A stretch of DNA of 64,000 bases from Eledone cirrhosa. Taxonomy: Eukaryota. This document shows, one piece after another, positions 1,515 to 53,985 of the stretch; positions within the stretch are counted from its first letter, which is position 1, and each line of letters begins with the position of its first letter. The DNA is taken from assembly GCA_964016885.1 (NCBI GenBank), contig OZ024740.1, positions 276,334,001 to 276,398,000 of the forward strand, written 5' to 3'. The position numbers were made by a program, and so were the translations under genes. The notes under the pieces were generated by a model. The model did not search any database, had not been told where the DNA came from, and saw only the letters and a list, made by a program, of their open reading frames with translations.

Positions 1515-3363
1515 TGTTACCAGACATGTGGACAACGTGTGAATAATTCATTTCTCGAGTTTAGGCAATCACTATTGTGTAATCTCTTTAGAATATTTAT
1601 TTGTTCATCAATACATAGTCCACAGGACAGATTGCCCCTTGTGTATGGCTTGGACTTATTGATGGCTTTCCATTGAATGGAGTAGTCTATACTTCAGTCC
1701 TTGAGGGACCATACGTGGCTCGCGAGTTTCGTGGATGAACGTCTGTCCGGGTACCTAATGGTCGAGTGGTGGTTCAGGAAGTATTCCTTAAATCGGCCCT
1801 CCGCCATACCCACATAGGATTTGACCTGTGGTTGATTTGGTCGGTTGGAAGTGACCACAGCTTCATAAACTACAGCAGGTGTGTTGCATTGCTGTTGAAG
1901 GGGACAAGCTTCGGGCTTACGACAAGAGCACCTGGTGGAGTGTTGTTGTTAGAGCTGTTGGTGATGTGGGCCTTCGTGTTCTTAGTGCAGGAGGATCCTA
2001 GTTTTACTTTGTGTTGGTTAAAATGGAGCGGTATTTATGACCTATGGGAAAGTGTCTATCTAAGAGGACTAGACATTGTTTTCCTACATTGGTTTTAACG
2101 TTGAGTGAGAAAGGAGGAGAGAACCAGATAGTTTGTCTATTGTTACACTTTCTTTTCTTATTGCTGTTGTTGTTAGTGGGAGAGTAAGTGATAGGTTGTG
2201 AGAAGCTAATGCCGTGTTATAGTAGGATGCCGCTCTGTCAAAGATAGCCTTATTAGAGGAGAGGTTTGAGATTCTAGTACTGATATTATTTACAAAGTTT
2301 CTAAAAACAGTGGGAGGGTGGCATGAGTCCTTGTGAATGTAATTGAGTTTTTCGTTAAGCTTATGGAAGGGTCTGTAGGTGTGTGTGCAAAGGTCTAAAT
2401 TAATGTCTAAGAAATCTACGCTAGAGAGGTTGGTAGCTACTGTTATCCTAAGTCCTAATTCATTGAAGGTAGAAGCTAAGTCTTTTTTAAACCGGTCGAG
2501 GTCATGACCACATTTATGGCTCGATAAGGTCAGTCCATCATCGCGGTATATTCCCGTGTGGAAGTCCGGGAATCTAACACGTAATATGTCTAAAATAAAT
2601 AGGCCAACCAAGTTGCATACGTCAGCACTGTCAAACGATCCCATGGAGACATCGAATATGTCTGAAGTTGTTGACTTCTTTGCCCAGGCTATTCCGTTGT
2701 TGAAGAGGAGGGTTTTCCAGCAGTGAGAAATGATTTCCCTGTCTAAACCATCGACGGTAGTGTAAGTGGTAGCAAAGTCCAACGCTTTGTTTAACAGGGT
2801 CTCTGAGATTGACGGGTAAAAATCAACAATGTCAAACTGTGTGAACTTCGCTGTTTTGGATTTGAAGGAGTTAAACCACTCAATTACGGAGTCGCTGTTC
2901 TTCCACTGGGGCAGGTTGGACTTGGTCCTAATGGTTTTAACTATGTTTCTAAGTATGGCCTTACTGCCTAGTCCCGTATCTGTGCGTGCCGGGTTTAGTA
3001 GTCTACAAGTGGGGTTAGAAGTAAAGTCTACCTTGTGATCTTTCAAGGTGAAGAACCCCTCCTGCTTAGCTAGAGATTGTAGCTTCTTATCTACCTTAAG
3101 AGCGGCGGCAAGTTCTTTGGCTTCTGTATTAATGTTGTGGTAGGCTATAGGGTTAGCTTTCTTATATTTGGAAGTAATAGCGTTATGGGCCAAGTGGCGG
3201 AAAGTGGTGTTGTCGACTTCGTAAATATTATTAGTTTTGTCGGAAAGAACGAAAGTGTTATTAGAAGACCTAAACTTCTTAATATCATTTCTAAGTTTAG
3301 TTTGAAAGGTGTTAGGGTGTTTGCGAAAGGAAATGTTAGCGACTAAGTCAAGAAGGTCCTCCT
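1515..3363 (-). pseudogene. PLE reverse transcriptase plus Cys-rich linker and GIY-YIG endonuclease, frameshifted
   Basis: Manual translation: EDLLDLVANISFRK..FQTKLRNDI..SDKTNNIYE, then RT, a frameshift near 2200, IWFSPPFSLNVKTNVGK..HFP, then CSCRKPEACPLQQQC..VVYEAVV..SYVGMAEGRFKE..H..WSLKD*..CGLCIDE..LNSRNELFTRCPH. Contains stops and frameshifts. Confidence 0.88.
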
Positions 3364-3449
3364 TGTGTTCTTCGAGTTTGGCTTCCTACCCTGTGAGCGC
3401 TCTCTATATCCTCATGTCCTACACAATTTTGTGTCTCATCAACGTCAGT

Positions 3450-3663
3450 ATGGATTTATACAAACTGGATTACTCCCTGAAGAACATTCCCACTCCTTCC
3501 AACCATGTTTACCAAAAGCTTCTACAAAAAGCGGAAGATGTCGTCAGACGCTTAAGATGGCAAGCCCTAGCTTTTGACGGCAAAATTACAGGCACCAATA
3601 ACACGTTAAACATGAAATCGAGAGCCTACCCTCCTAAGGTAACTGAACTTGCTCCTTTCGAGG
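3450..3663 (+). pseudogene. Inverted N-terminal segment of the same PLE ORF
   Basis: MDLYKLDYSLKNIPTPSNHVYQKLLQKAEDVVRRLRWQALAFD...KSRAYPPKVTELAPFE is a typical PLE N-terminus (YSxKNIPxP, RxRWxA). It joins logically to EDLLDLV on the opposite strand at ~3363. Confidence 0.8.
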
Positions 3664-3697
3664 CGTATGGTTGTCCTTCCTGTTCTGTATAACTGTG

Positions 3698-4921: not shown

Positions 4922-5140
4922 GAATAATACAACTTGTTTCACTGACATGCTCTATAATAGAAGTTCAGAGCCAAAACACTTGTTTGAGTGAGGTTTCTTC
5001 TCTGAAGACCTGTTGCCCAGCTCTCCTCAGAGTTTCTTATTACTTTGGTAGGATTGGCTCAAGTTCACCAGAACATAGATGGGAAGCTTTCTTGAGTATA
5101 AAGAAGAATTGCTAAAGCTTTATATTATTGTATTTCTAAT

Positions 5141-5568
5141 ACGGGTGTGGATTGGCAGTATCGGTAGAGAGTCGGACGCCATGCTTTCCAGCATAGTTAC
5201 GTCCTCCCTTTACAGTCTGAGTTCAAATCCCGCCGAGGTTAACTTTGCCTTTCATCCTTACGGGGTCGATAAAATAAAGTACCAGTAATGTACTGGGTAA
5301 TTGATGGCCTTGTGCCAAAAGTAGAAACAATTATTGTATTTCTAATATTTCTATTGTATTTCTAAAGGGCGGTGGATTGGCAGTATCGGTAGAGGGTCGG
5401 ACGCCATGCTTTCCAGTATAGTTACGTCCCTTTACGATCTGAGTTCAAATCCCGCCGAGGTTGACTTTGCCTTTCATCCTTACGGGGTCGATAAAATAAA
5501 GTACCAGTAATGAACTGGATAATTGCTGGCCTTGTGCCTAAAGTAGAAACAATTATTGTATTTCTAAT
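5141..5568 (+). mobile_element. Two tandem family-A SINEs
   Basis: A-box-like TGGCAGTATCGG and B-box GAGTTCAAATCC in each copy; (ATT) tails; locus-specific ATTATTGTATTTCTAAT before, between and after the copies. Confidence 0.88.
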
Positions 5569-5949
5569 AGAATAAACTGCTTATGTGTTTAAATCAATTT
5601 TGAAAATAAACAAAAATTGGAGGAATTTGATAAAATAACCGAATTTTTCAACAATAAGCTGATATTTTGAACATAACTAAACAAACATTTCTAAAAGAAT
5701 ATTAAGAAGGAAGGTTTTAATATGAGATTAAGCATGTTAAAAGGGGCAGTTTTGTATCACAAATCTCAGATGGTTTCAGGTAGTTGTTGGCATATTTTAT
5801 TGACTAATTTTTTGTTGATATTACTATCACAAATTTCCAAGGACACTATTTTTTCTTCATAGATGTATGTGTAATTATGACTATATCTCCAGAATATAAG
5901 AGGGATCAAAATTGTGACCTAATATTCAGGCGCTTACATGCTTACATAA

Positions 5950-6299: not shown

Positions 6300-6578
<279 letters not shown>

Positions 6579-9241: not shown

Positions 9242-9611
9242 CGTTTCTGAATTTGTTTAGCAAGATTCTTTATCTGAAAACGTGTGTTGAAAGCGATATT
9301 GTTATGCTTTGGGAGGGTCATGTTGCCAATAAGAAAGACACGCACCAGTTGCTTTCACTTCAATTTATTATAAATTAAGTTTATAAATTTAGGAATTTAT
9401 AAATTTCTGGTTGGTTGGTTGGTTGGTTCCATAACCGGACGATTGTTCATATATTGTCATAGTTATATATATATATATATACAAAGTTATATATATATAT
9501 ATATATATATACAAAGTTATATATATTATATATATATACAAAGTTATATATATATATATATATATATATACAAAGGTATATATATATATACAAAGGTATA
9601 TATATATATAT

Positions 9612-9650
<39 letters not shown>

Positions 9651-9653
9651 AAG

Positions 9654-9704
<51 letters not shown>

Positions 9705-9775
9705 GAAAAAGAGATGAAATCGAAAATGCAACTGGAGTCTTATTTTTTTTTTTAAATATATATATTTATTTGGTT

Positions 9776-9813
9776 CCTTTACCGGTTTCGCAGTTCTTCT
9801 GCTTTTCAAAAGG
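9776..9813 (-). ncRNA. Identical U3-A8 hammerhead motif on the opposite strand
   Basis: Exact reverse complement of 9871-9908. Confidence 0.7.
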
Positions 9814-9870
9814 TGAGTTGAGATGGAGGGTCTGAGTTGAGAAAAACCACAGACCCTCCATCTCAACTCA

Positions 9871-9908
9871 CCTTTTGAAAAGCAGAAGAACTGCGAAACC
9901 GGTAAAGG
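9871..9908 (+). ncRNA. Minimal hammerhead ribozyme motif, U3-A8 core variant
   Basis: CCTT-TTGAAAA-GCAG AAGAA CTGC-GAAAC-CG-GTA-AAGG: perfect stems I and II, palindromic ACCGGT stem III, GUA cleavage triplet. Confidence 0.7.
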
Positions 9909-10040
9909 AACCAAATAAATATATATATTTTTTTTTTAAAATAAGACTCCAGTTGCATTTTCGATTTCATCTCTTTTTCTTTATACTTTCACTCGTGTAG
10001 GACACCTCGGTTATTTTTCATTTTGTAAAAAATACCTCAC

Positions 10041-10111
<71 letters not shown>

Positions 10112-10162
10112 TATATACACAAAGTTGTTACGACAAAATCTGATTCAATTTTCAAATATGTT

Positions 10163-10198
<36 letters not shown>

Positions 10199-10349
10199 TG
10201 TGTATATATATGTGTACATGTGTGTATATATGTGTGTGTATATGTATGTGTATGTATATGTATGTGTATGTATATAGATATGTATGTGTATAAATATATA
10301 TCATATATGTACACACATATATATATTTGTGTACACATGTGTGTGTGTA

Positions 10350-10389
<40 letters not shown>

Positions 10390-31974: not shown

Positions 31975-32345
31975 GATCGGACGCCATGCTTTCCAGCATA
32001 GTTACGTCCCTTTACGATCTGAGTTCAAATCCCGCCGAGGTTGACTTTGCCTTTCATCCTTACGGGGTCGATAAAATAAAGTACCAGTAATGCACTGGGT
32101 ATTTTCTGGCCTCGTGCCTAAAGTAGAAACAATTATTATTATTATTTTAAGGTGGTGAATTGGCAGTATCGGTAGAAAGTCGGACGCCATGCTTTTCAGC
32201 ATAGTTACGTCCCTTTACGGTCTGAGTTCAAATCCAGCTGAGGTTAACTTTGCCTTTCATCGTTACGGGGTGGATAAAATAAAGTACCAGTAATGTACTG
32301 GGTAATTGCTGGCCTCATGCCAAAAGTAGAAACAATTATTATTAT
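31975..32345 (+). mobile_element. Two tandem family-A SINEs, preceded by degenerate copies from ~31660
   Basis: Near-consensus sequence. Confidence 0.85.
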
Positions 32346-34442
32346 TTTAATTGTTTTTGAACAACAAGAAAAGTACTGTACAACTGTATTGTGAATCTGT
32401 TTAGGCATTACACTACATATATAAGAAAATGAGTTAAATTGAATGTAGGAATAAGTTTAAATTATATGTCTTGCTGTGAAAATGTAAACAAATGTAAACA
32501 CATTAGTATTTTCTCTGCAAATAGAAAAATATTCAGATTGCCTTTACATGTTTCACAACTTATTGGTTGTTCATCATAAAACAAGTGTCCTCATTTCTTT
32601 CCACAAAGAGAACAATATATGTATGTGTGTATGCACATACGTGCACACACACAAACACACTTATATAAAATAAGGGAACACAAGGTCATGTCACAACCAC
32701 TTTGTGCTAATGTTGACAAGGAAATAATAATTTAATTTCTTCCTCCCTCCCTAATCACAGTCAATGTTGACAAGATGTTCAGTGGTCATGTAGCAGCTAT
32801 CCATAGCTACCTACCTATGCATCTATTTATCTTCAAACAATTGATACAATATCTATTCATCTACTTAGATATCTGTCTGTCTGTCTACATATTTGTATAT
32901 CTGTCTGTCTACCTGTCAATCTATATATCAACCTCTCTATCTGTCTGCCTGTCAATCAATAATTATTTTTTTAATGTATATTTGCCAATATATCTATCTT
33001 CAGACAAGAACAATAACAACAAGCCCCAAATGCTAATCAGTAAAAAAATTGATAGTTATAAAGATACAAGAGTTCTTGTCTGATGACCCTGTGATAAGCA
33101 GGTGGAACTCCAGAGAAACAAGTTTGTAGAAGTACATGTATGTGTATGTGCATATTTTTATGTATATGTCTATTTCTGTGTTTGTGTGTGTATGTTCACT
33201 ATGTAAACAGACTGGACATTAAAATTGTTTTGCCCTTTATTTTTTGAGCCAATATTGAAATATCAAAAAACTTTTGCATTAAATCAAGAGGGCATAGACA
33301 TTTTTTTATCTCAGAAGAATCAGAAATGACATTCAAGCAGTCTTGTGTTCTTCACAATCAAGCTTCTCTTTCTAATCAATTTCATTTTGCTTTTAATCTA
33401 TTGATAGTATTGAATTACCTACCTATCTTTCTCCCCCTTTTCTGTTTGCCTGCCTCTCATTTTCCCTCTCCTCTCCCTGCAATTCATTCACCACATTATT
33501 ATATCTCTCTCTACCCACTCACACACATTCCTACACTAACATACTACCTCTTATTTCCCTCTAGTCCCTTTTTATAAACAATACATTCTGATTTTCTATA
33601 GAAGTTTTACCTCAGAGAATGTTGTAATGAAATCTTCATTGCTTTTCATTTGGTTGTAAAGGATAGGATTAAACACATAAGTATAATAATTAGAATGCCT
33701 TCTCTCTTTACCTATCTCTCTGCTTACCTCTAAAACTATCTATCTTTCTCACTTTAGCTCTCTCTCTCTCTCCTCATATATGACATATACGTTTTTTTCC
33801 ATTCTTGTTTAAGATGGGTATATATATATATATATATTTCTCAACCTGTCCATCTTTCTAGCTATCTTAGTTATCGGACAACATGCTTTGTGACATATAG
33901 TTACGTCCATTTACCTTCTGAGTTCAAATTCTGTCAAGGTTAGCTTTGCCTTTCATCCTTATGGGATTGATAAAATAAAGCAGCAGTAATACACTGGGGT
34001 TGATTTAATCAACTTTCCCCTCACCCCAAATTGATGGCCTTGTGCCAAACATAGAAACAGATATTTAGATACAGCCCTTTATATTCTGAGTTTCAAGTCA
34101 CATCAAGGTTGAAGTTTGTGTTTCATCCTTACCCCTGTTAAGAAAATAATGTATCTATCAAGTACTGGTTTAATGTAATCAGCTGTTCCCCTTCAGAAGG
34201 TGTGGCCTTGTGACTATATTAGAATTGATTATTATCATTATTACTAGCTGATTCCCATCTCCCCCACTCCACCTCTCTCTCCTTCCCTATTTCCCCTTCT
34301 CTCACATGCTCTCACACAGACATACTTTTTCTATACTTGTTATTACATGTGATTTTGGTGTTGCTGCTATTTAGCCAATTCTGGCTGAAGCCTATGAAAA
34401 TTACTACCCTTACCACCTCCCCCCACTCTGTCTCTCTCACCG

Positions 34443-35444: not shown

Positions 35445-38400
35445 TAGCGGCCCATTGGTTGGTTGGTAGGTTGGTGGTGGTTGTAACGGTGGTGTGGTGT
35501 AGCGGCCCATTGGTTGGTAGGTAGGTAGGTGGTGGTTGTAATGGTGGTGTGGTGTAGCGGCCCATTGGTTGGTAGGTAGGTTGGTGGTGGTTGTAATGGT
35601 GGTGTGGTGTAGCGGCCCATTGGTTGGTAGGTAGGTTGGTGGTGGTTGTAATGGTGGTGTGGTGTAGCGGTCCATTGGTTGGTAGGTAGGTTGGTGGTGG
35701 TTGTAATGGTGGTGTGGTGTAGCGGTCCATTGGTTGGTAGGTAGGTTGGTGGTGGTTGTAATGGTGGTGTGGTGTAGCGGTCCATTGGTTGGTAGGTAGG
35801 TAGGTGGTGGTTGTAATGGTGGTGTGGTGTAGCGGTCCATTGGTTGGTAGGTAGGTTGGTGGTGGTTGTAATGGTGGTGTGGTGTAGCGGTCCATTGGTT
35901 GGTAGGTAGGTTGGTGGTGGTTGTAATGGTGGTGTGGTGTAGCGGCCCATTGGTTGGTAGGTAGGTTGGTGGTGGTTGTAATGGTGGTGTGGTGTAGCGG
36001 TCCATTGGTTGGTAGGTAGGTTGGTGGTGGTTGTAATGGTGGTGTGGTGTAGCGGCCCATTGGTTGGTAGGTAGGTTGGTGGTGGTTGTAATGGTGGTGT
36101 GGTGTAGCGGTCCATTGGTTGGTAGGTAGGTTGGTGGTGGTTGTAATGGTGGTGTGGTGTAGCGGCCCATTGGTTGGTAGGTAGGTAGGTTGGTGGTGGT
36201 TGTAATGGTGGTGTGGTGTAGCGGCCCATTGGTTGGTAGGTAGGTTGGTGGTGGTTGTAATGGTGGTGTGGTGTAGCGGCTCATTGGTTGGTAGGTAGGT
36301 TGGTGGTGGTTGTAACGGTGGTGTGGTGTAGCGGTCCATTGGTTGGTAGGTAGGTAGGTGGTGGTTGTAATGGTGGTGTGGTGTAGCGGCCCATTGGTTG
36401 GTAGGTAGGTTGGTGGTGGTTGTAATGGTGGTGTGGTGTAGCGGCCCATTGGTTGGTAGGTAGGTTGGTGGTGGTTGTAATGGTGGTGTGGTGTAGCGGC
36501 CCATTGGTTGGTAGGTAGGTAGGTGGTGGTTGTAACGGTGGTGTGGTGTAGCGGCCCATTGGTTGGTAGGTAGGTTGGTGGTGGTTGTAATGGTGGTGTG
36601 GTGTAGCGGCCCATTGGTTGGTAGGTAGGTAGGTGGTGGTTGTAATGGTGGTGTGGTGTAGCGGCCCATTGGTTGGTAGGTAGGTTGGTGGTGGTTGTAA
36701 TGGTGGTGTGGTGTAGCGGTCCATTGGTTGGTAGGTAGGTTGGTGGTGGTTGTAATGGTGGTGTGGTGTAGCGGCCCATTGGTTGGTAGGTAGGTTGGTG
36801 GTGGTTGTAACGGTGGTGTGGTGTAGCGGCCCATTGGTTGGTAGGTAGGTTGGTGGTGGTTGTAATGGTGGTGTGGTGTAGCGGCCCATTGGTTGGTAGG
36901 TAGGTTGGTGGTGGTTGTAATGGTGGTGTGGTGTAGCGGCCCATTGGTTGGTAGGTAGGTTGGTGGTGTGGTGTAGCGGCCCATTGGTTGGTAGGTAGGT
37001 TGGTGGTGGTTGTAATGGTGGTGTGGTGTAGCGGTCCATTGGTTGGTAGGTAGGTTGGTGGTGGTTGTAATGGTGGTGTGGTGTAGCGGCCCATTGGTTG
37101 GTAGGTAGGTAGGTGGTGGTTGTAATGGTGGTGTGGTGTAGCGGCTCATTGGTTGGTAGGTAGGTTGGTGGTGGTTGTAATGGTGGTGTGGTGTAGCGGT
37201 CCATTGGTTGGTAGGTAGGTTGGTGGTGGTTGTAATGGTGGTGTGGTGTAGCGGCTCATTGGTTGGTAGGTAGGTTGGTGGTGGTTGTAACGGTGGTGTG
37301 GTGTAGCGGTCCATTGGTTGGTAGGTAGGTAGGTGGTGGTTGTAATGGTGGTGTGGTGTAGCGGCTCATTGGTTGGTAGGTAGGTTGGTGGTGGTTGTAA
37401 TGGTGGTGTGGTGTAGCGGTCCATTGGTTGGTAGGTAGGTTGGTGGTGGTTGTAATGGTGGTGTGGTGTAGCGGTCCATTGGTTGGTAGGTAGGTTGGTG
37501 GTGGTTGTAATGGTGGTGTGGTGTAGCGGTCCATTGGTTGGTAGGTAGGTTGGTGGTGGTTGTAATGGTGGTGTGGTGTAGCGGTCCATTGGTTGGTAGG
37601 TAGGTTGGTGGTGGTTGTAATGGTGGTGTGGTGTAGCGGCCCATTGGTTGGTAGGTAGGTTGGTGGTGGTTGTAATGGTGGTGTGGTGTAGCGGTCCATT
37701 GGTTGGTAGGTAGGTTGGTGGTGGTTGTAATGGTGGTGTGGTGTAGCGGTCCATTGGTTGGTAGGTAGGTTGGTGGTGGTTGTAATGGTGGTGTGGTGTA
37801 GCGGCCCATTGGTTGGTAGGTAGGTTGGTGGTGTGGTGTAGCGGTCCATTGGTTGGTAGGTAGGTTGGTGGTGGTTGTAATGGTGGTGTGGTGTAGCGGT
37901 CCATTGGTTGGTAGGTAGGTTGGTGGTGGTTGTAATGGTGGTGTGGTGTAGCGGCCCATTGGTTGGTAGGTAGGTTGGTGGTGGTTGTAATGGTGGTGTG
38001 GTGTAGCGGCCCATTGGTTGGTAGGTAGGTTGGTGGTGGTTGTAATGGTGGTGTGGTGTAGCGGCCCATTGGTAGGTAGGTAGGTTGGTGGTGGTTGTAA
38101 TGGTGGTGTGGTGTAGCGGCCCATTGGTTGGTAGGTAGGTTGGTGGTGGTTGTAATGGTGGTGTGGTGTAGCGGCCCATTGGTTGGTAGGTAGGTTGGTG
38201 GTGGTTGTAATGGTGGTGTGGTGTAGCGGTCCATTGGTTGGTAGGTAGGTTGGTGGTGGTTGTAACGGTGGTGTGGTGTAGCGGCCCATTGGTTGGTAGG
38301 TAGGTTGGTGGTGGTTGTAATGGTGGTGTGGTGTAGCGGCCCATTGGTTGGTAGGTAGGTTGGTGGTGGTTGTAATGGTGGTGTGGTGTAGCGGCCCATT

Positions 38401-38948
38401 GGTTGGTAGGTAGGTAGGTTGGTGGTGGTTGTAATGGTGGTGTGGTGTAGCGGCCCATTGGTTGGTAGGTAGGTTGGTGGTGGTTGTAACGGTGGTGTGG
38501 TGTAGCGGCCCATTGGTTGGTAGGTAGGTTGGTGGTGGTTGTAATGGTGGTGTGGTGTAGCGGCCCATTGGTTGGTAGGTAGGTTGGTGGTGGTTGTAAC
38601 GGTGGTGTGGTGTAGCGGCCCATTGGTTGGTAGGTAGGTTGGTGGTGGTTGTAATGGTGGTGTGGTGTAGCGGCCCATTGGTTGGTAGGTAGGTTGGTGG
38701 TGGTTGTAACGGTGGTGTGGTGTAGCGGCCCATTGGTTGGTAGGTAGGTTGGTGGTGGTTGTAATGGTGGTGTGGTGTAGCGGCCCATTGGTTGGTAGGT
38801 AGGTTGGTGGTGGTTGTAACGGTGGTGTGGTGTAGCGGCCCATTGGTTGGTAGGTAGGTTGGTGGTGGTTGTAATGGTGGTGTGGTGTAGCGGCCCATTG
38901 GTTGGTAGGTAGGTAGGTGGTGGTTGTAATGGTGGTGTGGTGTAGCGG
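35445..38948. repeat. 55-bp G/T-rich minisatellite array, ~3.5 kb, ~64 units
   Basis: Unit TAGCGGCCCATTGGTTGGTAGGTAGGTTGGTGGTGGTTGTAATGGTGGTGTGGTG, with occasional 59-bp and 40-bp variants. Confidence 0.98.
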
Positions 38949-40244: not shown

Positions 40245-41770
40245 GAGTTGAAATCCTGCCGAGGTTAGCTTTGCCTTTCATCCTTACAGGGTCGATAAAA
40301 TAAAGTACCAGTAATACACTCGGTTGATTTAATCAACCTTCTCCTCACTCCAAATTACTGGTCTTGTGCCTATAATCATTATTATTATAATTATCATAGG
40401 GCGGTGGATTGGCAGTATCGGTAGAGCGTCGGACGCCATGCTTTCCAGCATAGTTATGTCCCTTTACGATCTGAGTTCAAATCCCGCCGGGGTTGACTTT
40501 GCCTTTCATCCTTACGGGGTCGATAAAATAAAGTACCAGTAATGTACTGGGTAATTGCTGGCCTTGTGCCTAAAGTAGAAACAATTATTATTGTCATTAT
40601 TATTGTAGGGTCGGAGGTTGACTTTGCCTTTCATTCTTACGGGGTCGATAAAATAAAGTACCAGTAATGCACTGGGTAATTGCTGGCCTTGTGCCTAAAG
40701 TAGAAACAATTATTATTGTAGGGTCGGACACCATGCTTTCCAGTATAGAGTTACATCCCTTTACGATCTTAGTTCAAATCCCACCGTGATTAACTTTGCC
40801 TTTCATCCTTACGGGGTCGATAAAATAAAGTACCAGTAATGTACTGGGATAATTGCTGGCCTTGTGCCTAAAGTAGAAACAATTATTAATTATTATTGCG
40901 GTGGATTGGCAGTATTGGTTGAGAGTCGGACGCCATGCTTTCCAGCATAGAGTTACGTCCCTTTACGGTCTGAGTTCAAATCCCACCGATGTTAACTTTG
41001 TCTTTCATCCTTACTTGGTCGATAAAATAAAGTACCAGTAATACACTGGGTAATTGCTGGCCTTGTGCCTAAAGTAGAAACAATTATTGTTATATGGGGT
41101 CAATAAAATAAAGTATTCGCAATGCACTGGGGTCGACTTTCCCCTTCCCCAAAATTGCTGGCCTTGTGCCTGTATAAGAAACCATTATTAATTATTATTG
41201 TATGGGGTCGATAAAATAAAGTACTCGTAATACACTGGGGTTGATTTAATCGACTTCCCTCTATCCTCCGAATTTTTGGCCTTGTGCTTTAATCAGGAAC
41301 CACTATTGGCAGTATCGGTAGAGGGTCGGACGCCATGCTTTCCAGGATAGTTACGTCCCTTTACGATCTGAGTTCAAATCCCGCCGAGGTTGACTTTGCC
41401 TTTCATCCTTACGGGGTCGATAAAATAAAGTACCAGTAATGTACTGGGTAATTGCTGGCCTTGTGCCTAAAGTAGAAACAATTATTATTATTGAATTAAT
41501 GTGTTGTTACTAGCCTAAGAAGAAAATATAAGTGTCATAATTTTCTTTTTTCCTTGCATCCTATGTTTATGTAAGGAACTCTTCTTCTGGATTGGCAGTA
41601 TCGGTAGAAGGTCGGACGCCATGCTTTCCAGCATAGTTACGTCCCTTTACGATCTGAGTTCAAATCCCGCCGAGGTTTACTTTGCCTTTCATCCTTACGG
41701 GGTCGATAAAATAAAGTACCAGTAATGTACTGGAATAATTGCTGGCCTTGTGCCAAAAGTAGAAACAATT
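40245..41770 (+). mobile_element. Head-to-tail cluster of ~9 full and 5'-truncated family-A SINEs
   Basis: GTC(G/A)ATAAAATAAAGTA recurs about nine times, all on the + strand, joined by (ATT)n tails. Confidence 0.9.
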
Positions 41771-53589: not shown

Positions 53590-53985
53590 GTTATTGGCAG
53601 TATCGGTAGAGGGTCAGACACCATGCTTTCCAGCATAGTTACGTCCCTTTACGATCTGAGTTCAAATCCCGCCGAGGTTGACTTTGCCTTTCATCCTTAC
53701 GAGGTCGATAAAATAAAGTACCAGTAATGCACTGGGATAATTGATGGCCTTGTGCCAAAAGTAGAAACAATTATTTACCTGCTAAGGGTGGTGAATTGGC
53801 AGTATCGGTAGAGGGTCGGACGCCATGGTTTGCAGCATAGAGTTACGACCCTTTATGATCTGAGTTCAAATCCCGCCAAGGTTAACTTTTCCTTTCATCC
53901 TTACGGGGTCGATAAAATAAAGTACCAGCAATGCACTGGGATAATTGCTGGCCTTGTGCCAAAAGTAGAAATAATTATTTACCTG
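53590..53985 (+). mobile_element. Two tandem family-A SINEs
   Basis: Near-consensus; ATTATTTACCTG before, between and after the copies. Confidence 0.88.

What the first reader, a model, noticed from the sequence alone, without database searches (positions are those of the whole stretch)
9700..10047. Long hairpin made of two opposed U3-A8 variant hammerheads
Seen: ~135-bp near-perfect arms, each containing CCTT-TTGAAAA-GCAG..CTGC-GAAAC-CG-GTA-AAGG. The usual C3-G8 core pair is replaced by compensatory U3-A8, and stems I and II pair perfectly. The right arm continues ~60 bp to a (TA)n tract. Transcription in either direction gives one ribozyme plus its complete antisense, so the RNA is either a self-inhibited ribozyme or long dsRNA. 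Inference: an inverted PLE terminal-repeat insertion or a fold-back mini-element, and a likely ADAR or Dicer substrate ~3 kb downstream of the MEF2 exon.
Basis: partly seen in the sequence, partly recalled or inferred. Interest (0 to 1): 0.75.

Follow-up and report, generated by a model that had tools for sequence, protein, structure and literature searches.

The report
Head-to-head Penelope retrotransposon stub hairpin
This hairpin is one of more than a thousand head-to-head stubs of a young Penelope-type jumping gene in this genome, with a ribozyme variant already described in print, and it likely formed when the element's RNA was copied from both sides of a DNA break back to the RNA's predicted start.

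Summary
Real but mostly ordinary. The 135-bp arms and the U3-A8 hammerhead motif are confirmed. They are two head-to-head pieces of the terminal repeat (pLTR) of a young, two-ORF, Neptune-like Penelope element (RT plus GIY-YIG), inserted in (TA)n inside a ~164-kb MEF2 intron. The motif has 6,009 exact copies, and 1,104 similar hairpins exist. This junction is single-copy, so this hairpin has not spread as a unit. U3-A8 cores, opposed hammerhead pairs, inverted truncated copies and a one-sided tail are all published.

The anatomy adds a likely mechanism. Outer ends fall at two fixed sites (+152, +214), one of each per hairpin (23 of 27, none alike). Inner ends cluster 30 nt below a TATA box. 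In three long insertions neither arm can be a copy of the other. This favours two cDNAs primed on both target strands, run off the predicted RNA start and joined by microhomology, over fold-back self-priming. The scan noted this idea before for other families in this genome.

Cleavage, editing and dicing are untested. Arm ends show no peak at the ribozyme cut.

The parts
9464..9702 (.). (TA)n target tract, left flank
   Evidence: Tandem Repeats Finder
9700..9834 (-). Short arm: pLTR piece from about +18 to +152 (numbered from the predicted transcription start), ending at the tail-less site
9776..9813 (-). U3-A8 type I minimal hammerhead motif of the short arm
9833..9842 (+). Junction: 10-nt direct repeat of 9814-9823, i.e. 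a 3-nt insert (9835-9837) between 2-nt and 5-nt microhomologies; likely a templated insertion; single-copy in the genome
   Evidence: sequence; uniqueness
9838..10047 (+). Long arm: pLTR piece from +6 to +214
9871..9908 (+). U3-A8 hammerhead motif: core 9875-9881, stem II 9882-9894, predicted cut after 9904; 6,009 exact copies genome-wide
9914..9941 (+). AATAAA hexamer (9914-9919) followed by a T10A4 run; the other arm has T3A11, which is the 7-nt mismatch; the run drifts after insertion
9985..10047 (+). One-sided 'tail' of 62-63 nt; in full elements it leads on into ORF1
10047..10387 (.). (TA)n-rich target tract, right flank
6357..6560 (+). Host context: MEF2 MADS/MEF2-domain exon; the next exon found lies at G000:C1:276505041, so the hairpin sits about 3.1 kb into an intron of about 164 kb

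Best explanation
The hairpin is a single, non-coding insertion of two head-to-head terminal-repeat pieces of a young Penelope-like retrotransposon, likely made by two separate reverse-transcription events primed on opposite strands of a cut (TA)n target. Shown: family identity, copy numbers, two fixed outer ends, clustered inner ends, one-long-one-short pairing, unique junction. Inferred: (1) the element's GIY-YIG endonuclease nicks both strands of (TA)n; (2) each 3' end primes at one of two internal TA-bearing sites of the RNA (+152, +214), which gives the one-sided tail; (3) when copying starts in the 5' pLTR of a capped transcript, both cDNAs run off the RNA start after 150-215 nt; (4) the two cDNA ends are trimmed and joined by microhomology, here with a 3-nt templated insert. 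The hammerhead is a passenger. In the parent RNA it is predicted to be a weak, dimer-dependent ribozyme; in this copy it is predicted to be locked in duplex. Any transcription of this copy would be as part of the MEF2 intron.
For: Parent: ORF2 hits RVT_1 and GIY-YIG above Pfam cut-offs; all 20 regions fetched around 775-aa frames show it, 19 of 20 with the pLTR downstream within the fetched stretch. Outer ends: 99 of 109 arms end at +152/153 (41) or +212-214 (58); 94 of 109 are followed by (TA)n. Pairing: 23 of 27 short hairpins are one long plus one short, 0 are alike, 4 have an irregular end; about 49% mixed is expected by chance. Inner ends: 53 of 109 lie within -3..+6; 4 of 4 long copies checked have TATAAAA at -30 and CCAAT at -80 of that point. 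In solo arms with an intact +1, 5 of 8 have G before it where the element has C, as a copied cap would give (weak). Against fold-back copying: in L133, L142 and L150 the ORF-bearing arm ends at +152 and lacks the tail, while the inverted arm has the tail and lacks the ORF; the short arm reaches further 5' in 8 of 23 hairpins and the long arm in 10. Arms share lineage SNPs in 23 of 25 pairs at each of two sites (shuffled means 14.0 and 12.7). Published biochemistry on a Poseidon element shows both-strand cleavage and extension, two internal start sites bounding the tail, and no need for ribozyme cleavage (PMC11167929).
Against: No RNA data: the transcription start, cap and poly(A) site are predictions from DNA. 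Some of the five G-at-minus-1 cases adjoin GA or GT repeats. The sample is the first 100 exact motif matches on one contig, so it needs an intact hammerhead and under-samples shorter arms. SNP sharing between arms also fits fold-back copying or later conversion between arms. The T/A-run difference between arms, first taken as support, is void: segmental duplicates of one insertion also differ there. The anole element starts at sites not homologous to the target, whereas here both ends lie in TA motifs, so priming may differ. Arkhipova et al. 2013 prefer self-priming on an antisense template (PMC3846280).
Confidence: 0.7

Rival explanations
1. Fold-back self-priming: one cDNA (or an antisense RNA) folds on itself at a palindrome and templates the second arm.
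For: Proposed in print for head-to-head Penelope structures (PMC3846280). Arms share lineage SNPs. Several junctions are near-perfect palindromes.
Against: In L133, L142 and L150 neither arm contains the other. The 5' reach is symmetric between long and short arms, 10 against 8. Unpaired arms ending at +152 exist, so +152 looks like a start site in its own right.
Confidence: 0.15
2. The hairpin is an autonomous-shaped fold-back mini-element (MITE- or retrozyme-like) that moves as a unit.
For: 1,104 hairpins of similar size exist, and a few junction sequences recur.
Against: This junction is unique. Recurrent junctions occur in both polarities and on different haplotypes. Arm lengths grade continuously up to ORF-bearing copies. 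No tandem monomers at this locus.
Confidence: 0.04
3. The hairpin has been kept as a regulatory duplex (ADAR or Dicer substrate, or ribozyme switch) in the MEF2 intron.
For: It lies on the sense strand of a MEF2 intron and would form a 135-bp duplex. An earlier scan note reports edited Penelope hairpins in this genome (not checked for those loci).
Against: The copy is nearly identical to a young family, is one of over a thousand, and shows no sign of selection. The arms carry no A>G changes. Editing as a by-product would not need selection.
Confidence: 0.06
4. Inner ends are set by ribozyme cleavage or by a structural block to RT, not by the RNA's start.
For: The motif is intact in 42 of 42 ORF-selected arms at the seven 5' core positions.
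Against: Inner ends cluster about 70 nt upstream of the cut. Among the 100 listed of 157 hairpins with one arm ending near the ribozyme, 3 end exactly at the cut and 12 within one base, against about 11 at a microhomology 3 nt upstream (counted by eye). A TATA box at exactly -30 favours a promoter.
Confidence: 0.05

Closest known systems
Canonical EN+ Penelope-like element insertion (inverted 5'-truncated copy plus one-sided tail, (TA)n bias; Craig et al. 2021 PMC8557442; Arkhipova et al. 2013 PMC3846280)
   Same: Head-to-head inverted pLTR pieces, tail on one arm only, microsatellite target, hammerhead in the pLTR, TATA/Inr-like motifs in the pLTR.
   Different: Tail is 62-63 nt, not 30-40. 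Both arms are stubs that stop at a predicted transcription start. The strict long-plus-short pairing was not seen in the passages read.
PLE minimal hammerheads, including the U3-A8 variant of Schistosoma Cercyon elements (Cervera and De la Pena 2014, PMC4209133)
   Same: Type I topology, 4-bp stem I, palindromic short stem III, U3-A8 core (about 1,300 hits there), and pairs 100-700 bp apart on opposite strands.
   Different: Stem II is 4 bp, not 7-8, and has no unpaired base at its 5' end. The family here is highly uniform. Activity was not tested.
Poseidon element of Anolis (Frangieh et al. 2024, PMC11167929)
   Same: Two fixed sites bounding the tail near the pLTR-ORF junction; AT-rich targets; no sign that cleaved RNA is the template.
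   Different: Here both ends lie in TA motifs that can pair with the target, no stable hairpin follows them, and the element has a Zn-finger linker and two ORFs.
Neptune/Nematis-type PLEs with a CX2-5CxxC linker
   Same: C-terminal GIY-YIG, DKG and GxKF motifs, CX4CxxC linker, (TA)n targeting.
   Different: A ~400-aa ORF1 overlaps ORF2 in the -1 frame. No phylogeny was run, so Neptune against Nematis is not settled.

Membership tests
EN+ Penelope-like element | [quoted passage not shown] | tested here: met
   RVT_1 30.1 bits (cut-off 29.6) and GIY-YIG 23.4 bits (cut-off 22.6) in L061
EN+ Penelope-like element | pLTRs in direct tandem and inverted arrangement, with a one-sided tail | tested here: met
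EN+ Penelope-like element | Hammerhead motif in the pLTR | tested here: met
EN+ Penelope-like element | Target-site duplication | tested here: inconclusive
   Both flanks are (TA)n, so none can be read
Neptune/Nematis clades | CX2-5CxxC linker between RT and EN; DKG motif | tested here: met
   Both read directly in the ORF2 translation; definition from PMC8557442 passages
Neptune/Nematis clades | RT phylogenetic placement | not tested
Hydra clade | DKT motif, CxCX5C linker, no GxKF | tested here: not met
   ORF2 has DKG, GLKF and CX4CxxC (definition)
Naiad clade | N-terminal endonuclease, no canonical hammerhead | tested here: not met
   EN is C-terminal
Type I minimal hammerhead ribozyme | Core positions, 3-8 Watson-Crick pair, G10.1-C11.1, palindromic stem III | tested here: met
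   U3-A8, G-C closing pair; predicted dimer via the palindrome at -20.3 kcal/mol against -6.4 for a monomer
Type I minimal hammerhead ribozyme | Covariation of stems across related families | tested here: inconclusive
   Family too young (5 differences in 1,596 positions); no C3-G8 copy; one subfamily changes the outer stem I base without compensation (L012)
Type I minimal hammerhead ribozyme | Self-cleavage | not testable with these tools
   U3-A8 cores are reported active in vitro in other contexts (PMC3088659 passage)
Non-LTR retrozyme | Tandem head-to-tail hammerhead-bearing monomers | tested here: not met
   The two copies are inverted; no tandem array at the locus
MITE / fold-back element | The whole inverted-repeat unit is multi-copy | tested here: not met
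   Junction found once with up to 1 mismatch
Known microRNA precursor | Rfam gathering score | tested here: not met
   Best hit on the hairpin 45.8 bits against a threshold of 100

The most novel reading that the evidence does not exclude
Penelope pseudo-LTRs work like true retroviral LTRs (promoter, repeat, priming region). A dimeric RT-endonuclease primes on both target strands at two fixed sites just inside the RNA's 5' end and makes two 'strong-stop'-like cDNAs. If both run off the cap and are joined, a stub hairpin like this one results; if one transfers to the RNA's 3' repeat, an ORF-bearing copy results. This would explain the inverted structures and tails of the class and replace the published antisense self-priming proposal.
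Probability: 0.4. Interest if true: 0.6.

Novelty: new member of a known kind. Interest (0 to 1): 0.3.

Why it matters
The locus itself is a routine transposon stub. Its family is useful because it is young, abundant and has sharp ends, so it gives concrete predictions for an open question named in the literature (how PLEs form inverted structures; PMC8557442): a capped start at +1, RT starts at +152 and +214, and one of each per insertion. Over a thousand perfect 130-150-bp duplexes, some in introns, are also a plausible bulk source of dsRNA, but nothing here shows a function for this copy.

Tried and rejected
1. T/A-run asymmetry as proof of two RT events. The run keeps a total of 13 in 75 of 98 arms and is uncorrelated between arms, but duplicates of one insertion also differ (L007/L021, L018/L022). 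Rejected as evidence. It resembles the known NTT[A>T]AAA hypermutability (10.1101/108290 passages); consensus error is not excluded.
2. Ribozyme-cut RNA as template: no peak at the cut (by eye, 100 of 157).
3. A C3-G8 version of the motif: 0 copies.
4. Hairpins behind the two outer ends, as earlier notes report for Hydra elements: none here (z 0.36-0.74, one copy folded).
5. An ADAR-like A>G cluster in a 3' UTR subfamily: no overall excess (A>G 252, G>A 213, T>C 195 over 45 copies).
6. Expression: no RNA holder listed.
7. Independent check of this junction: no listed contig spans it; this proves nothing either way.
8. ORF1: no Pfam hit, no credible NCBIfam hit, 6 unnamed homologues at 38-50% identity. 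The protein atlas gave no answer.
9. PMC1986816 is not held; its result is cited only through PMC3088659.
10. The scan index had no look-alike of this arm and no note with all of my key words.

Full report
OBSERVATION. The hairpin is real. Arms 9700-9834 and 9850-9984 match at 128 of 135 nt, differing only in a 7-nt block of a T/A run. The region folds at -228 kcal/mol, z = -32.6. Each arm holds a type I hammerhead motif (9871-9908 on +, 9776-9813 on -) with U3 and A8, 4-bp stems I and II, a palindromic stem III/loop and a predicted cut after 9904. Both ends abut (TA)n. Rfam lists no hammerhead here, only sub-threshold miRNA models. No listed public contig spans this junction; three contigs cross a sister junction.

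WHAT IT IS. The window lies at G000:C1:276334001-276398000 in a 3.0-Gb genome; the earlier scan notes call it octopus-type, which I did not test. The 38-nt motif has 6,009 exact copies against 0 for the reversed control. Following longer copies upstream gave a 0.6-1.3-kb 3' UTR and a 775-aa frame with RVT_1 and GIY-YIG above Pfam cut-offs. The 150 best-scoring matches to its C-terminal 209 aa are 98-100% identical, so the family is young. ORF2 has GLKF, DKG and a CX4CxxC linker, which fits Neptune/Nematis and not Hydra or Naiad as defined in PMC8557442. No tree was built. A ~400-aa ORF1 follows the tail and overlaps ORF2 in the -1 frame.

THE HAIRPIN FORM IS COMMON, THIS JUNCTION IS NOT. A gapped pattern finds 1,104 hairpins with 50-80 nt between the motifs (the pattern is its own reverse complement, so 1,104 per strand is one count). 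The junction of this copy occurs once, even with one mismatch. It carries a 10-nt repeat of 9814-9823, read as a 3-nt templated insert between 2-nt and 5-nt microhomologies (the mechanism is inferred).

END MAPPING. I took the first 100 exact matches on contig C1 and their neighbours: 112 arm alignments, 3 dropped because a locus edge cut them, 109 kept. Numbering is from the point where inner ends pile up. Outer ends: 41 at +152/153, 58 at +212-214, 10 elsewhere. Only 2 end near the longer TA stretch at +88-96 (at +84 and +98), so the sites are not simply the best TA match. Inner ends: 53 in -3..+6, 16 in +7..+40, 17 in -4..-386, 23 beyond the reference. Four of four long copies have TATAAAA at -30, CCAAT at -80, the ribozyme cut at +72 and AATAAA at +82. 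Five of eight solo arms with an intact +1 have G before it, where the element has C; some adjoin GA or GT repeats, so this is weak. Of 27 short hairpins, 23 pair a long with a short arm, none pair like with like, and 4 have an irregular end; chance would give about 49% mixed. This copy is +18..+152 against +6..+214.

TWO cDNAs OR FOLD-BACK. In L133, L142 and L150 (3 of the 21 ORF-bearing regions mapped) the ORF-bearing arm ends at +152 without the tail, and the inverted arm has the tail but no ORF. Neither can be a DNA copy of the other. The short arm reaches further 5' in 8 of 23 hairpins, the long arm in 10, and 5 are equal; fold-back from the long cDNA predicts the long arm every time, though microhomology blurs a few bases. 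Arms agree at two lineage SNPs in 23 of 25 scored pairs each (32 pairs found; shuffled means 14.0 and 12.7), which fits one source lineage but also fits the rival. I first read the T/A-run difference between arms as support; duplicates of a single insertion also differ there, so I withdrew it.

THE RIBOZYME. U3-A8 is family-wide: 42 of 42 arms chosen by ORF, not by motif, and no C3-G8 copy exists. The monomer fold is marginal; a dimer through the palindrome is predicted at -20.3 kcal/mol; in the full hairpin both stems have probability 0. Arm ends show no peak at the cut: 3 of 100 listed end exactly there and 12 within one base, against about 11 at a microhomology 3 nt upstream (by eye, 100 of 157). 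One subfamily alters the outer stem I base without compensation (L012).

HOST CONTEXT. The MEF2 exon is at 6357-6560 (+). The next exon found is at C1:276505041, giving an intron of about 164 kb if no exon lies between. A pre-mRNA would carry the antisense arm first, then the sense ribozyme. No editing footprint is in the DNA.

WHAT IS KNOWN. Cervera and De la Pena 2014 (PMC4209133; parts 1-2 of 4 read) report the U3-A8 variant in PLE hammerheads, opposed pairs 100-700 bp apart, and low, dimer-dependent activity. Perreault et al. 2011 (PMC3088659; passages) report natural U3-A8 cores. Craig et al. 2021 (PMC8557442; passages and section 11) describe inverted truncated copies, 30-40-bp tails and (TA)n bias, and call the mechanism open. 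Frangieh et al. 2024 (PMC11167929; parts 1-2 of 4) show both-strand priming and two start sites bounding the tail. Arkhipova et al. 2013 (PMC3846280; passages) propose antisense self-priming. Also seen: PMC12602865 (passages), 10.1101/108290 (passages), 10.64898/2026.07.22.740005 (abstract and outline). No supplements were opened; those of PMC8557442 may already list this family. One search for Penelope with pLTR, strong-stop, twin priming or transcription start site listed three papers, none with both pLTR and either mechanism term; searches added nothing on this point. The library lacks most subscription papers, so this is weak evidence of absence. The retroviral LTR analogy and the microhomology-joining reading rest on my own knowledge.

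EARLIER SCAN NOTES. I stated the start-site and two-site reading before the first look-up. Notes e1-10353012 and e1-9550100 give the same idea for other families in this genome; that is not independent support. The ORF1 frameshift was also noted before.

VERDICT. A new member of a known kind. Identity as an inverted PLE stub is close to certain; the two-cDNA, run-off mechanism is likely but inferred. Interest 0.3.

Noticed in passing
L131:4053-7516 (G000:C2): Parent element has two overlapping ORFs (about 400 aa and 775 aa, -1 frame) with a T TTT TTA heptamer in the overlap, a candidate programmed frameshift. ORF1 has no Pfam hit and 6 unnamed homologues. Earlier scan notes report the same for Neptune elements.
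   Followed up: partly
window 9928-9941; L007/L021, L018/L022, L132: The T/A run shifts its boundary at nearly constant length (sum 13 in 75 of 98 arms; rho -0.96), also between duplicates of one insertion. One lineage has T3 with A17-21 just below AATAAA, which might be a captured poly(A) tail.
   Followed up: partly
window 1694-3692 (-): Broken RT-bearing element with a DKT motif and an endonuclease-like tail, likely a Hydra-clade Penelope element (motif definition). No hammerhead was found near it by my simple scan.
   Followed up: no
window 35445-38948: 55-bp satellite, 64 copies, 92% matches.
   Followed up: no
window 5126-5569, 31977-32346, 40491-40719, 53593-53985: Tandem pairs of a ~200-bp SINE-like repeat; the SINE label is recalled, not tested.
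   Followed up: no
L004, L005, L011, L016, L019, L029 and others: Many other unrelated perfect palindromes of 100-750 bp lie in the flanks of fetched loci, which suggests fold-back insertions of other families are dense in this genome.
   Followed up: no
L012, L017, L018, L022: A subfamily changes two bases at the 5' edge of hammerhead stem I without a compensating change; public contigs show the first of these changes at about half the depth in run X1.
   Followed up: partly
G000:C4:320.0-320.9 Mb and C25:25.07-25.14 Mb: Insertions of this family are carried within tandem segmental duplications, four copies each.
   Followed up: partly
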